From the human T2T-CHM13v2.0 reference genome, Homo sapiens: a stretch of 64,000 nucleotides of DNA. Below, one piece after another: positions 9,724 through 31,295 of the stretch. The first letter of the stretch is position 1, and every line of letters begins with the position of its first letter. Below the pieces are notes generated by a model. That model had not been told where the DNA came from. It did not search any database and saw only the letters and a list, made by a program, of their open reading frames with translations. The translations under genes and the position numbers were made by a program. The stretch is taken from assembly GCF_009914755.1 (NCBI RefSeq), contig NC_060931.1; one strand, written 5' to 3'.

Positions 9724-10128
9724 AAATACATAAAATAAATTAGAAGGATTGGCAAAATAAGAAATATTTCACCTTGAGGTATATTTATATGGATATGTTA
9801 TTAATATACTGAAAAATCGTATAACATATTTAAAAATCTGATGTGTCTTGGTATAAATGGTATCAGTCAATTTTGGTTCAGAAATAACATTCTTGTCAAT
9901 TATGTCATCAATACCATGGACTCAGACCAGGTTTTGGCCATGGTCACTTGAAGTCTTCATGTCCACACTTAATTGCTTTAGTCTAATGTCTTTCTGAAAG
10001 CTTCTTGCAGGCAATTATAATCCCAGAGAGTTATGTCTTCAAGGAGCTTCATGGAAAGAATGAAGTCTGACAAGTACGGGTTTCTAATAACTTTGAGTTC
10101 ACACTATTGAACTAAATTTCCAAAACTC

Positions 10129-11212
10129 GGCCAGGCACAGTGGCTCAAGCCTGTAATCCCAGCACTCTGGGAGGCCGAGGTGGGCGGATCACCTGAGGTC
10201 GGGAGTTCGAGACCAGCCTGACCAACATGGAGAAAACCCGTCTCTACTAAAAAAAAAAAACACACACACAAAAAAATTAGCTGGGCGTGGTAGCATGTGC
10301 CTGTAATCCCAGCTACTCAGGAGTCTGAGGCAGGAGAATCGCTTAAACCCGGGAGGCGGAGGTTGCAGTGAGCTGAGATTCTGTCGTTGCACTCCAGCCT
10401 GGGCAACAAGAGTGAACCTCTGTCAAAAAAAAAAAAAAAAAAAAAAAAATTCCAAAACTCGAATGAAGAAACTGATGGGTTTGTGAAATTGCTAATACAG
10501 ATCACAGCAAGAATTAATTACAAGACTGAATGAACTGATGAAAAATAATTATTAATCTTTTTTTTTTTTTTTTTTTTGAGATAGAACCTCACTCTGTCGC
10601 CCAGGCTGGAGTGCAATGGCGTGATCTCGGCTCACTACAACCTCTGCCTGCCAGGTTCAAGAGATTCCTTTGCCTCAGCCTCCCAAGTAGCTGGGATTAC
10701 AGGTGCCTGCCACCATGCCCGGTTCATTTTTTTTTTTTTTTTTTTTTTTTTGAGACAGAGTTTCATTCTTGTTGCCCAGGTTGGAGTGCAATGGCGAGAT
10801 CTTGGCTCACTGCAACCTCTGCCTCCCAGGTTCAAGCAATTCTCCTGCCTCAGCCTCCCTAGTAGCTGGGATTACAGACATGTGCCACCACGCATGGCTA
10901 ATTTTATATTTTCAGTAGAGACAGGGTTTCTACATGTTGGTCAGGCTGGTCTCGAACTCCCGACCTCAGGTGATCTGCCTGCCTCGGCCTCCCAAAGTGC
11001 TGGGATTACAGGTGTGAGCCACCAAACCAGGCCTGAATCTTTTTTTTTTTTTTTTTTTTTTTTTTATGGCAGGGTCTTGGCTCCGTCACCCAGGCTGAAG
11101 TGCAGTGGTGTGATCATGGCTCACAGCAGCCTTGAATTCCTTAGCTCAATCGATCCTCCCACCTCAGCCTCCCAAAATGCTGTGATTACAGGTGCAAGCC
11201 ACTAGACCCAGC
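10129..11212. mobile_element. Alu cluster: + strand AluS 10129-10449, then tandem minus-strand Alus 10558-11212
   Basis: Alu consensus and poly-A/T tracts; AAATT(T)CCAAAACTC TSD around the first copy. Confidence 0.9.
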
Positions 11213-11410
11213 TGAATTATGGATTTTTAAGGCTGCTTTATGTCAAACATTGTGGGTTCTTTTAATATTGTTTTCCAGATTTAAGGAAACTTTTTTCTTT
11301 TAAGCTTTGTATAATTTATAGTAATTTGGTAAAGTACTTTTGAAAACAAAAACGAAAACATTTGCTTTTCCTCTCTACCTGAACCCTCCAGAATTTAGAA
11401 GCAATTTATG

Positions 11411-12203
11411 ATTTTTTTTTTATTATTATACTTTAAGTTCTAGGGTACATGTGCACAACGTGCAGGTTTGTTACATATGTATACATGTGCCATGTTGGTG
11501 TGCTGCACCCATTAACTCATCATTTACATTAGGTATATCTCCTAATGCTTTCCCTCCCCCCTCCCCCCACCCCACAACAGGCCCTGGTGTGTGATGTTCC
11601 CCTTCCTGTGTCCAAGTGTTCTCATTGTTCAATTCCCACCTGTAAGTGAGAACATGTGGTGTTTGGTTTTTTGTCCTTGCGATAGTTTGCCGAGAACGAT
11701 GGTTTCCAGTTTCATCCATGTCCCTACAAAGGACATGAACTCATCCTTTTTTATGGCTGCATAGTATTCCATGATGTATATGTGCCACATTTTCTTAATC
11801 CAGTCTATCATTGTTGGACATGTGGGTTGGTTCCAAGTCTTTGCTATTGTGAATAGTGCCGCAATAAACATACGTGTGCATGTGTCTTTACAGCAGCATG
11901 ATTTATAATCCTTTGGGTATATACCCAGTAATGGGATGGCTGGGTCAAATGGTAATTCTAGTTCTAGATCCCTGAGGAATTGCCACACTGACTTCCACAA
12001 TGGTTGAACTAGTTTACAGTCCCACCAACAGTGTAAAAGTGTTCCTCGTTCTCCACATCCTCTCCAGCACCTGTTGTTTCCTGACTTTTTAATGATCGCC
12101 ATTCTAACTGGTGTGAGATGGTATCTCATTGTGGTTTTGATTTGCATTTCTCTGATGGCCAGTGATGATGTGAGCATTTTTTCATGTGTCTGTTGGCTGC
12201 ATA
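11411..12203 (-). mobile_element. 5'-truncated L1PA (L1PA4-like) 3' end
   Basis: ORF 11629-12177 is the ORF2p C-terminus ([24 protein letters not shown]), followed by the 3'UTR and a poly-T tail at about 11411. Confidence 0.9.
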
Positions 12204-28700: not shown

Positions 28701-30750
28701 AAAAAGTAGCCGGATATGGTGGCAGGCACCTGCAGTCCCAGCTACTCGGGAGGCTGAGGCAGGAGAATGGCGTGAACCCGGGAGGCAGAGCTTGCAGTGA
28801 GCCGAGATCGCGCTACTGCACTCCAGCCTGGGTGACAGAGCGAGACTCCGTTTCAAAAAATATATAAATAAATAAATAAATAAATAAATAAATAAAACAG
28901 GTTGCAGTGAAGAAGCCGGTTAAAACCCACCAAGACCAAGATGGCGACGAGAGTGACCTCTGGTCGTCCTCACTGCTACACTCCCACCAGCTTCATGACA
29001 GTTTACAAATGCCATGGCAACGTCAGTAAGTTACCCTATGTGGTCTAAAAAGGGGAGGCATGAATAATCCACCCCTTGTTTAGCATATCATCAAGAAATA
29101 ATCATAAAAATGGGTAACCAGCCACCCTCGGGGCTGCTCTGTCTATGGAATGGTCATTCTTTCATTCCTCTACTGTCTTAATAAACTTGCGTTCACTTTA
29201 TGGACTCGCCCTGAATTCTTTCTTGCGTGAGATCCAAGAACCCTCACTTGGGGTCTGGGTAGGGACCCCTTTCCTGTAACACTATCATTCTCAAGTTTTT
29301 TTTTTTTTTTTTTGAGATGGAGTCTCGCTCTGTCACCCAGGCTGGAGTGCAGTGGCACGATCTCAGCTCACTGCAACCTCCGCCCCCCAGGTTCAAGCGA
29401 TTCTCCTGCCTCAGCCTCCCGAGTAGCTGGGATTACAGGTACGCTGTAATTTTTGTATTTTTAGTAGAGACAGGGTTTCACCATCTTGGCCAGGCTGGTC
29501 TTGAACTCCTGACCTCATGATCCACCCGCCTTGGCCTCCCAAAGTGCTGGGATTACAGGCATGAGCCACTGCGTCTGGCCCATTCTCAAGTTTTGTTTTG
29601 TTTTGTTTTAGAGACAAGGTCTCACTCTGTTGTCCAGGCTAGAGTGCAGTGATATGATCACGGCTCACTGCAGCCTGGAACTCCTGAGCTCAAGCGATCT
29701 TCCTACCTCAGCCTCTTAGAGTGCTGGGATTATAGGCTTGAGCCACTGCATTCAAACTCGAGCCCTTTTTCTTTTTTAATCTAAATTCCTTTTTTTTTTT
29801 CTTTTTGAGTTGGGGTCTTGCTCTGTTGCCCTGGCGAGAGTGCAGTAGCTGGATCATATCTCACTGCAGCCTCCAACTCCTGGGCTCAAGTGATCCTCCC
29901 ACCTCAGCCTCTGGAGCTGGGAATACAGGCACTCACCACCATGCCTGGCTAATTTTCATATTTTGTTTGGTAGAGATGGAGTTGCACTATGTTGGCCAGG
30001 CTGGTCTCTAACTCTTGGGCTCAAGAGATCCCTCCACCTCAGCCTCCCAAAGTGCTGAAATTACAGGTGTGAGCCACCGCACCCAGCCCAAATTGATTGT
30101 GGTTTTTTTTTTTATTTCACTTTTCCCCCTGTGATACAGCCCCAGAAGATCCCCAAATAAATTCTTAAAACAGTCTTATGACTCTTTAATGTCAGAAATC
30201 CTATCTATAGGAACAATGGTATGCAATGCTCAGGAACTAGTGCCACCTGACTTTTAGCAACAAGGAAGTAGGCCAAAATGCAGCCTGATGAATGCTTAAT
30301 TATAACTCTATTTCTGTCCAGAACCCAGCATGCAGTTCTTGTCGCTCCTGTGGGGATAGTTTCATTCTCATTGTAAATGAATATTCTGGTGTGTTGCTTT
30401 GGGATATATAAGTTGTTCAAGAAAAGGGATCAAGCCTGGTGCGGTGGCTTATGCCTGTAATCCCAACACTTTGGGAGGCTGAGGTGGGTGGATCACCTGA
30501 GGTCAGGAGTTTCAGACCAGCCTGGCCAACAGGGCAAAACCCCCATCTCTACTAAAAATACAAAAATTAGCTGGCTGTGATGGTACGCAACTGTAATCCC
30601 AGCTACTCAGCAGGCTGAGGCAGGAGAATCTCTCAAAACCTGGGAGGCGGAGGTTGCAGTGAGCTAAGATCGTGCCATTTACACTCCGGCATGGCTGACA
30701 GAGCGAGAATCCGCCTCCAAAAAAAAAGAAAGAGAGAGAGAGAGAAAGAA
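25733..30750. mobile_element. Alu cluster (about 11 copies) in the fusion intron
   Basis: Alu consensus in both orientations. Confidence 0.85.
28395..29281 (+). mobile_element. MER41A-like solo LTR with an AluY inserted at 28574-28895
   Basis: TGTCAGAGG...CCAGAGCAACTCCAT...TTTCCTGTAACA termini. 4-bp TSD CTAT (28391-28394 and 29282-29285). AluY TSD ATAAAACAGGTTGCAGTGA. Confidence 0.9.
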
Positions 30751-31185
30751 AAGCAAAGCACGCTTGGTGACCGTGCTAGGTTTTTTGAGATAAGTTTTTT
30801 GTTAAATAAGAGCAATTTTGTTTAAGTTGGGGGTTATTTAAAGATTGTTTCAAAATATGGATTTAGGAAGGAAATAGAAACAAGGTGGGAAGAAGGCCAG
30901 TAAGTAGGAGAGATGTGAAAAAAAGTTATGAGGATGTATTTTTGGTAAAGAAAGTTGAAAAAAGAGTAATTTTTCATTTTGCATAAGAGAGGACTTTGGT
31001 CAAAATCAAGAGGAAAGGAAAGTAAATTTCTGTCCTAAAGTAGATTGCTAATATAAAAAAAGAAGTATAGGACAAAATCAAAGATTTAAGGAAGTGTAGA
31101 AGTTGTGGAAGATTAATCTCATGAAAGGAATTTGGTGTGTGATTAAGCTGGCCGAAATTAGAAGGGGATTATTTATAAGATTTTT
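30150..31185 (+). mobile_element. ERV1 MER4-group internal sequence (more 5' portion), interrupted by an Alu
   Basis: GGTTATTTAAAGATTGTTTCAAAATATGGATTTAGGAAGGAAATAGAAACAAG and TTAAGCTGGC...ATTAGAAGGGGATTATTTATAAG resemble the recalled MER4-group internal consensus. Confidence 0.6.
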
Positions 31186-31295
31186 GGCCAGGCGTGGTGG
31201 CTCATGCCTGTAATCCCAGCACTTTGGGAGGCTGAGGCGAGCTGATCACCTGAGGTCAGGAGTTCGAGACCAGCCTGCTCAACATGGCGAAACCC
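31186..31295 (+). mobile_element. AluS left monomer truncated at GAAACCC; candidate junction between the ZP3-region and POM121-region modules
   Basis: The Alu stops at ATGGCGAAACCC|ACTTCAAC with no linker, tail or TSD, and the ERV sequence does not resume. Confidence 0.7.

What the first reader, a model, noticed from the sequence alone, without database searches (positions are those of the whole stretch)
9740..31295. Two ERV1-internal pieces appear in reversed consensus order, so the ZP3 module itself looks circularly permuted
Seen: MER4-group-like internal sequence lies on the + strand at both ends of the ZP3-bearing module (about 30150-31185 and 9740-12825), each ending at a broken Alu. From the recalled consensus, the 30-31 kb piece lies 5' of the 9.7-12.8 kb piece, the reverse of their order here. 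Inference: 25.6-31.3 kb is not ZP3 intron 4 but DNA from downstream of ZP3, placed upstream of exon 5 by circularisation. The fusion intron would then have three parts: POM121 intron, ZP3-downstream DNA and a stub of ZP3 intron 4.
Basis: inference. Interest (0 to 1): 0.7.

Follow-up and report, generated by a model that had tools for sequence, protein, structure and literature searches.

The report
Looped ZP3 copy built POMZP3 gene
The human fusion gene POMZP3 holds a 25-kb copy of the ZP3 region whose far end is joined back to its start through a hybrid Alu repeat; it was likely a DNA circle that was cut and stitched in with POM121C and chromosome 1 pieces, probably in one repair event.

Summary
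The prediction holds. Window 25412-31294 maps 10-16 kb downstream of ZP3, beyond the homolog of 9527, in the same orientation (97% identity). It joins ZP3 intron 4 inside a chimeric Alu (27-bp crossover, 25385-25411). The 7,205-bp fusion intron has three parts: 1,145 bp POM121C, 5,883 bp ZP3-downstream DNA and a 150-177 bp intron-4 stub. The two repeat pieces are halves of one element, and 6 of 6 unrelated loci holding both show the donor order. The MER4/ERV1 label could not be tested.

New here: 22,194 of 24,660 donor bases are present. A 210-bp piece at 57971-58180 completes the AluY split at 9527 (12-bp duplication), and POM121C DNA stands in place of the missing 2,466 bp. The flanks are not a clean target. 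They are chromosome 1 copies with two more split points (11-bp and 9-bp duplications), and the junction fillers copy each other's split sequences, which points to one complex event. A free circle is likely but not proven; template switching gives the same sequence. The locus is absent from two published circle catalogues. New variant of a known kind.

The parts
8281..9504 (.). End of block V, an inverted copy of chr1 DNA. V starts about 39.7 kb left of the window (C7:77832260); only its two ends were aligned.
   Evidence: 98.8% to C1:82974000-82972781; start = C1:83022071; lengths 49,245 vs 49,291 bp
9505..9526 (.). 22-bp filler at the V|A junction, tiled by short copies of sequence around the right outer junction (split points x1 and x0)
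   Evidence: matches of 13, 8 and 7 bp to 58247-58316
9527..25411 (-). Block A: ZP3 intron-4 stub, last four exons and 7.8 kb of downstream DNA; starts inside an AluY at split point x2 (12 bp, 9527-9538, repeated at 58169-58180)
   Evidence: C7:77738280-77722268, 0.97% substitutions
9730..12811 (+).
   Evidence: collinear with chr15 and chr9 copies at 69-82%
17199..25234 (-). ZP3-derived exons of POMZP3; the splice from the POM121-derived exon keeps the ZP3 reading frame
   Evidence: annotation row; 99% to C7:77728564-77730458; joined CDS translation
25235..32439 (-). 7,205-bp fusion intron: 1,145 bp POM121C intron + 5,883 bp ZP3-downstream DNA + 150-177 bp ZP3 intron-4 stub; GT...AG ends
25272..25557 (+). 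Chimeric Alu that closes the permutation: left arm from the ZP3 intron-4 Alu, right arm from an Alu 24.6 kb downstream; crossover in 27 identical bases at 25385-25411
   Evidence: C7:77722268 and 77746901
25412..31294 (-). Block B: DNA from 10.5-16.4 kb downstream of the ZP3 3' end
   Evidence: C7:77746900-77740945, 1.32% substitutions
30798..31159 (+). Earlier part of the same old repeat element
31292..57973 (-). Block P: 5' part and upstream DNA of POM121C, collinear except a 390-bp inversion (56604-56993) beside an 8.9-kb gap; 3-bp microhomology at each end
   Evidence: C7:76727084-76752752 and 76761677-76762653; 0.76% substitutions
57971..58180 (-). Block C: 210 bp of ZP3-downstream DNA that directly adjoins the start of block A in the donor and completes the split AluY
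   Evidence: C7:77738478-77738269, 96.7%
58178..58297 (.). Block w: 120 bp of chr1 DNA that directly adjoins the start of block V in the donor; split point x1 = 11 bp at 58287-58297
   Evidence: C1:83022180-83022061, 98%
58298..58308 (.). 11-bp filler at the w|Z junction, matching the x2 Alu sequence in inverted orientation (11 bp with two bases of Z)
58309..64000 (+). Block Z: chr1 copy in forward orientation, starting inside an L1 at split point x0 (9 bp, 58309-58317). The 243 bp of L1 that precede it on chr1 lie just left of block V (C7:77832016-77832258).
   Evidence: C1:83026544 onward, 98%

Best explanation
The ZP3 part of POMZP3 is a circularly permuted 24.7-kb copy of the ZP3 locus closed by an Alu-Alu crossover, and it likely existed as a DNA circle that was cut and joined to POM121C and chromosome 1 pieces, probably in one germline repair event. 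Shown steps: (1) an Alu 16 kb downstream of ZP3 is joined to the Alu in intron 4; (2) 26.7 kb of POM121C 5' DNA stands where 2,466 bp of the loop are missing, which puts the POM121 promoter and exons upstream of the last four ZP3 exons, in frame; (3) the loop is opened inside an AluY with 12 bp duplicated; (4) its ends are joined to chr1-derived pieces that are themselves split at two points with 11 and 9 bp duplicated. Inferred steps: that the loop was a free circle; that the three splits were staggered breaks; that they were open together, because the two fillers carry copies of the other split points; and that error-prone end joining with templated synthesis made the fillers.
For: Mapping and chimeric Alu. 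22,194 of 24,660 donor bases between the two Alus are present, and nothing at 94.5% or more from the 7 flanking 10-kb stretches examined. C and A abut in the donor with a 12-bp overlap. w/V and y/Z abut on chr1 with 11- and 9-bp overlaps. Left filler: 11-bp match to x1 on chr1 and 13-bp match to the derived w|Z junction; 0 of 20,000 random 91-bp flank stretches reach 11; 22 of 24 bases are tiled by 7-mers or longer, reached by 60 of 20,000. Right filler: 11-bp inverted match to x2; 0 of 20,000 flank stretches reach 9. All blocks differ from their donors by 0.8-1.7%, short C apart.
Against: Sequence alone cannot tell a free circle from template switching or from a slice of a tandem duplication. 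The filler tests were chosen after seeing the matches. The right filler is Alu core sequence, reached by 236 of 20,000 random stretches of the Alu-rich donor, so it may come from another Alu. Divergence is uneven: outside CpG, P 0.51+-0.05%, gene-body A 0.45+-0.08%, B 0.85+-0.13%, downstream A 1.04+-0.12%; this could mean separate steps, or conversion and rate differences. The 243-bp L1 piece y matches chr1 at 98% but was not compared with other young L1 copies. The middle of V was not aligned. No ape genome was available.
Confidence: 0.5

Rival explanations
1. No free circle. Two tethered broken ends copied outward from the same point in each donor in turn (chr1, then ZP3, with one detour into POM121C), and the two new strands finally annealed at the Alus. 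This is a replication-based template-switching event of the MMBIR/FoSTeS type.
For: Nested order V-A-B-P-C-w; 3-bp microhomologies at three junctions; templated fillers; inversion plus gap inside P; all donors intact. Chimeric Alus and 11-bp templated insertions are reported at template switches in PMC6902434 (passages).
Against: Three separate 9-12 bp duplications fit physical staggered cuts more simply (inference). The ends would have to synthesise very unequal lengths (120 bp vs 49 kb, 210 bp vs 16 kb).
Confidence: 0.27
2. Unequal Alu-Alu crossover first made a heritable tandem duplication of the 24.7-kb ZP3 segment. A slice across its junction (B-A-C) was later copied out, and the tandem allele was lost.
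For: The chimeric Alu is also the junction of such a duplication. PMC7188851 names tandem duplication plus partial loss as the main false positive for circles.
Against: No tandem copy in 77.69-77.79 Mb. The slice ends fall 2.5 kb apart on a 24.7-kb unit without overlap, which a circle enforces and a tandem array does not. The copy at 78.2 Mb lacks the ZP3 exons and is younger or converted (60 sites group it with ZP3 against the window, vs 12 and 15).
Confidence: 0.13
3. Serial, independent events over generations: a ZP3 circle, a later POM121C insertion, and a later integration into an existing chr1-derived block.
For: P is closer to its donor than B and downstream A are.
Against: The module does not sit in a contiguous target: its flanks are 49.4 kb apart on chr1, and the fillers link all three split points.
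Confidence: 0.1

Closest known systems
Circular-DNA-mediated segmental duplications (cSDPs), Chicote et al. 2020, PMC7450558
   Same: Block order flipped in the same orientation; donor ends joined inside the copy; copy ends adjacent in the donor; non-tandem site.
   Different: Their closures show 0-2 bp microhomology and no flanking homology; here the closure is a chimeric Alu. Their acceptor sites are contiguous; here the flanks are rearranged chr1 pieces. A second donor (POM121C) sits inside the loop. The locus is not in their Tables S1 or S5.
eccDNA-mediated duplications, Takahashi and Innan 2020, PMC7188851
   Same: Same swapped-order signature.
   Different: They state that none of their cases seems to have created new copies of coding genes; here the permutation makes an in-frame fusion. 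Not among their three circle cases.
SVA-recombination integration of an lcr16a circle (NPIPB founder), PMC9132208
   Same: Repeat-to-repeat recombination and a circular intermediate in a hominid duplication that shifts exons.
   Different: There the repeats mediate integration; here they mediate closure, and integration shows microhomology and templated fillers.
Alu-Alu-mediated and MMBIR/FoSTeS complex rearrangements in patients (e.g. PLP1, PMC6902434)
   Same: Chimeric Alu, short microhomologies, templated insertions, inversion with gap.
   Different: This one is in the reference genome, draws on three distant donors including another chromosome, and yields an expressed gene.
POM-ZP3 / POMZP3 (Kipersztok et al. 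1995; seen only as a citation in PMC4888837 and PMC12305945)
   Same: The same fusion gene.
   Different: No account of its DNA junctions was found in my searches.

Membership tests
Circular-DNA-mediated segmental duplication | Blocks swapped in order, same orientation | tested here: met
   donor order A, C, B; window transcription order C, (P), B, A
Circular-DNA-mediated segmental duplication | Donor ends joined inside the copy | tested here: met
   chimeric Alu at 25385-25411
Circular-DNA-mediated segmental duplication | Copy ends adjacent in the donor | tested here: met
   9527 and 58180 overlap by 12 bp at C7:77738269-77738280; 2,466 bp are lost at a second site where POM121C DNA lies
Circular-DNA-mediated segmental duplication | No homology at the closing junction (Chicote's description) | tested here: not met
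   closure lies in 27 identical bases of two direct Alus
Circular-DNA-mediated segmental duplication | Contiguous acceptor site | tested here: not met
   flanks map 49.4 kb apart on the chr1 paralog; an outer site with a 9-bp duplication lies 98 kb wide
Circular-DNA-mediated segmental duplication | No flanking tandem copy that mimics the flip | tested here: met
   none in 77.69-77.79 Mb of this assembly; lost alleles cannot be excluded
Circular-DNA-mediated segmental duplication | Copy absent in an outgroup primate | not testable with these tools
   no ape genomes held
Alu-Alu-mediated rearrangement | Full-length chimeric Alu from two direct Alus with crossover in shared identity | tested here: met
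Replication-based complex rearrangement (MMBIR/FoSTeS) | Several junctions with microhomology and templated insertions, donors intact | tested here: met
Replication-based complex rearrangement (MMBIR/FoSTeS) | Origin in a single event | tested here: inconclusive
   fillers support it; uneven divergence does not settle it
ERV1 / MER4-group internal sequence | Match to the family consensus | not testable with these tools
   no Dfam or Repbase library
ERV1 / MER4-group internal sequence | Dispersed old copies with conserved internal order | tested here: met
ERV1 / MER4-group internal sequence | Flanking LTR pair or retroviral coding remnants | tested here: inconclusive
   no LTR pair in two 7-kb stretches; 0 of 19 ORFs hit Pfam; the stretches may be too short and old copies are often non-coding

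The most novel reading that the evidence does not exclude
A human protein-coding fusion gene was born in one germline event that cut three donor copies (chr1, ZP3, POM121C) at nested staggered breaks and stitched them around an Alu-closed ZP3 circle. The junction fillers record which ends were open together, and the same event laid down the 26-kb POM121C direct repeat that carries RefSeq's NAHR annotation.
Probability: 0.45. Interest if true: 0.72.

Novelty: new variant of a known kind. Interest (0 to 1): 0.56.

Why it matters
How duplicated DNA circularises and integrates is described as open (PMC9132208, passages). This locus gives every junction at base level. It has an Alu-closed loop, unlike the microhomology closures in the main catalogue, and a coding outcome, which the second catalogue did not see. 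It suggests that a mosaic duplication block can be built in one step rather than by accretion, which ape telomere-to-telomere genomes can test directly. It also corrects the gene model's story: 82% of the fusion intron is DNA from behind ZP3. Block P is a direct repeat of POM121C 1.18 Mb away and holds the annotated NAHR region (33746-34113); its link to the distal 7q11.23 deletion is my inference, as the primary paper was not held.

Tried and rejected
Unrelated insertions: rejected, one element in the donor. 25.4-31.3 kb as ZP3 or POM121 intron: rejected. The 78.2-Mb copy as donor of the module: rejected for A (it starts at the homolog of about window 11245 and lacks the exons); for B it is about as close as ZP3 (72 vs 75 differences) but groups with ZP3. 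A permuted POM121C block: rejected, P is collinear. A clean insertion with a target-site duplication at 9527/58180: rejected by the chr1 paralog. Window self-comparison showed no long internal duplication of the module. The right-filler test used wrong limits and gave nothing; it was redone. A 4-kb guess at the paralog of the sequence left of y found nothing, so that outer boundary is unresolved. Dating the steps by divergence did not separate them. The repeat's family could not be named. Antonell 2005 and Ramocki 2010 were not held and Kipersztok 1995 was seen only as a citation; they may describe part of this. bioRxiv supplements are closed and could hold relevant tables.
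Full report
Setting. The window is C7:77872001-77936000 of its own genome. The genome could be searched and read in stretches. No ape genome or repeat library was on hand. Gene names come from the hub's annotation row; coordinates written C7 or C1 are in that genome.

1. The observation. Alu-free parts of the two pieces (30765-31185 and 9735-10125) each hit dispersed copies at 67-92% identity. Leaving out this locus, the ZP3 locus and a copy at 78.2 Mb, 39 and 32 matches remain; six loci hold both within 50 kb, and in 6 of 6 the 30.8-kb piece comes first on the same strand. 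In the ZP3 donor both belong to one element spanning 77734844-77741447, 55% of it Alu; fragments inside the stretch missing from the window are collinear with copies on C15 and C9. So the reversed order is real. 30120-30432 did not match the two copies fetched.

2. The decisive mapping. 25287-31294 matches C7:77747025-77740945 at 97% and 9527-25557 matches 77738280-77722121 at 95-98%, both reversed. The last exon maps to 77730458, so block B comes from 10.5-16.4 kb behind ZP3, beyond the homolog of 9527. The donor's upstream exon is ZP3 (Pfam Zona_pellucida 9e-12; ZP3 structures), and the intron between it and the first copied exon is 390 bp with one Alu. Exon numbers 4 and 5 assume eight ZP3 exons (recalled). 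The A|B junction is a chimeric Alu: it follows the intron-4 Alu up to 25384 and the downstream Alu from 25412, with 27 identical bases between. The fusion intron is 7,205 bp: 1,145 POM121C, 5,883 block B, 150-177 intron-4 stub. The splice keeps the ZP3 frame.

3. The rest of the loop. Of the 24,660 bp between the two Alus, 22,194 are in the window; none of seven flanking 10-kb stretches is. 57971-58180 (block C) matches 77738478-77738269 and completes the AluY broken at 9527, with 12 bp present at both ends. The missing 2,466 bp lie between C and B, exactly where 26.7 kb of POM121C DNA (block P, 31292-57973) sits, with 3-bp microhomology at each end. P is collinear except for a 390-bp inversion next to an 8.9-kb gap. 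In transcription direction the module reads C, P, B, A.

4. The flanks. They have a 98-99% paralog on C1. 9504 maps to C1:82972781, 58178-58297 (w) to 83022180-83022061, both reversed, and 58309 onward (Z) to 83026544 forward. The reversed left block V begins at C7:77832260 = C1:83022071, so w and V abut on C1 with an 11-bp overlap. Left of V lie 243 bp of L1 (y) that match C1:83026310-83026552 at 98% and end 9 bp past the start of Z. The order is y, V, filler, A, B, P, C, w, filler, Z: three nested split points with 9, 11 and 12 bp duplicated. The y|V and w|Z junctions can also be read as the two ends of a 4.5-kb inversion. The middle of V was not aligned; its two lengths agree within 46 bp.

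5. The fillers. The 22-bp filler at 9505-9526 matches x1 on C1 for 11 bp and the derived w|Z junction for 13 bp; 0 of 20,000 random flank stretches reach 11, and 60 of 20,000 reach its 22-of-24 tiling. The filler at 58298-58308 with two bases of Z matches x2 inverted for 11 bp; 0 of 20,000 flank stretches reach 9, but 236 of 20,000 Alu-rich donor stretches reach 11. These tests are post hoc. They suggest that the three breaks were processed together.

6. Age. Substitutions against donors: A 150 of 15,467 (0.97%), B 75 of 5,675 (1.32%), P 189 of 24,962 (0.76%), C 7 of 207; V ends 11 of about 1,220 and 3 of 340, Z 34 of about 2,055. This is near the human-chimpanzee distance (recalled, about 1.2%), so a few million years; whether it is human-specific is open. 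The spread exceeds sampling error and cuts both ways: P is closer than B, but gene-body A is as close as P while contiguous with the more diverged downstream A. The 78.2-Mb copy groups with ZP3 at 60 sites against 12 and 15, so it is younger or homogenised.

7. Mechanism. The permutation, the Alu closure, the POM121C replacement and the nested splits are shown. I infer an Alu-closed circle captured in one multi-fragment repair event (0.5). Paired template switching without a circle gives the same sequence (0.27). A lost tandem duplication (0.13) and serial events (0.10) are less likely for the reasons listed.

8. Literature. PMC7450558: parts 1-3 of 4 of the text, Table S1 whole and every chr7 row of Table S5 read; ZP3, POMZP3 and POM121 occur 0 times in its two held supplements and no row lies at 76.0-76.7 Mb (the hg19/hg38 position of these genes is recalled); their computational search filtered out dense duplication regions. 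PMC7188851: parts 1-3 of 4 and 30 of 39 chr7 places in its Table S2, covering all of sheet 1; no 7q11.23 case. PMC4888837, PMC9132208, PMC6902434, PMC12305945, PMC4092221, PMC2930846: passages only. PMC6764479: supplement searched, 0 hits. Ten searches listed no paper on the POMZP3 junctions; only 40 of 88 POMZP3 papers were listed and most subscription papers are not held.

Verdict. The mechanism class is known; this instance, with an Alu closure, three donors, cross-templated fillers and an in-frame fusion, is a new variant. Interest 0.56.

Noticed in passing
window 28395-29281: Solo LTR-like element with TG...CA ends, interrupted by a young Alu with a long target-site duplication; it lies in block B, so inside the fusion intron. 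The name MER41-like is recalled, not tested.
   Followed up: no
window 56604-56995: 390-bp inversion between inverted Alus next to an 8.9-kb gap relative to POM121C upstream DNA; may belong to the same event or a later one.
   Followed up: partly
window 56995-57973: Piece with a KRAB-like exon, 99% to copies near POM121 and POM121C and 95% to C7:5.17 Mb; fits the RBAK-derived 5' exons described in PMC4888837 and overlaps LOC124906604 exon 57493-57775.
   Followed up: partly
window 31292-56600 vs C7:76727084-76752370: Direct repeat of POM121C 1.18 Mb away at about 98.5%, holding the RefSeq NAHR region 33746-34113.
   Followed up: no
C7:78225169 onward (L022-L027): A 99% copy of ZP3-downstream DNA of at least 53 kb begins at the homolog of 77736423, within 2 kb of split point x2. 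Five breakpoints cluster within 10.5 kb of the donor.
   Followed up: partly
window 17199-25380 vs 9540-17198: The ZP3 gene-body part differs from ZP3 by 0.58%, the contiguous downstream part by 1.39%: possible gene conversion or selection.
   Followed up: no
window 18677-18683: The annotation skips two bases (18681-18682) just before the stop codon, so this assembly differs from the reference transcript there.
   Followed up: no
C7:77831601-77832015 (L038): Sequence left of the L1 piece y matched no stored locus or the window; the outer boundary of the chr1-derived block is unidentified.
   Followed up: partly
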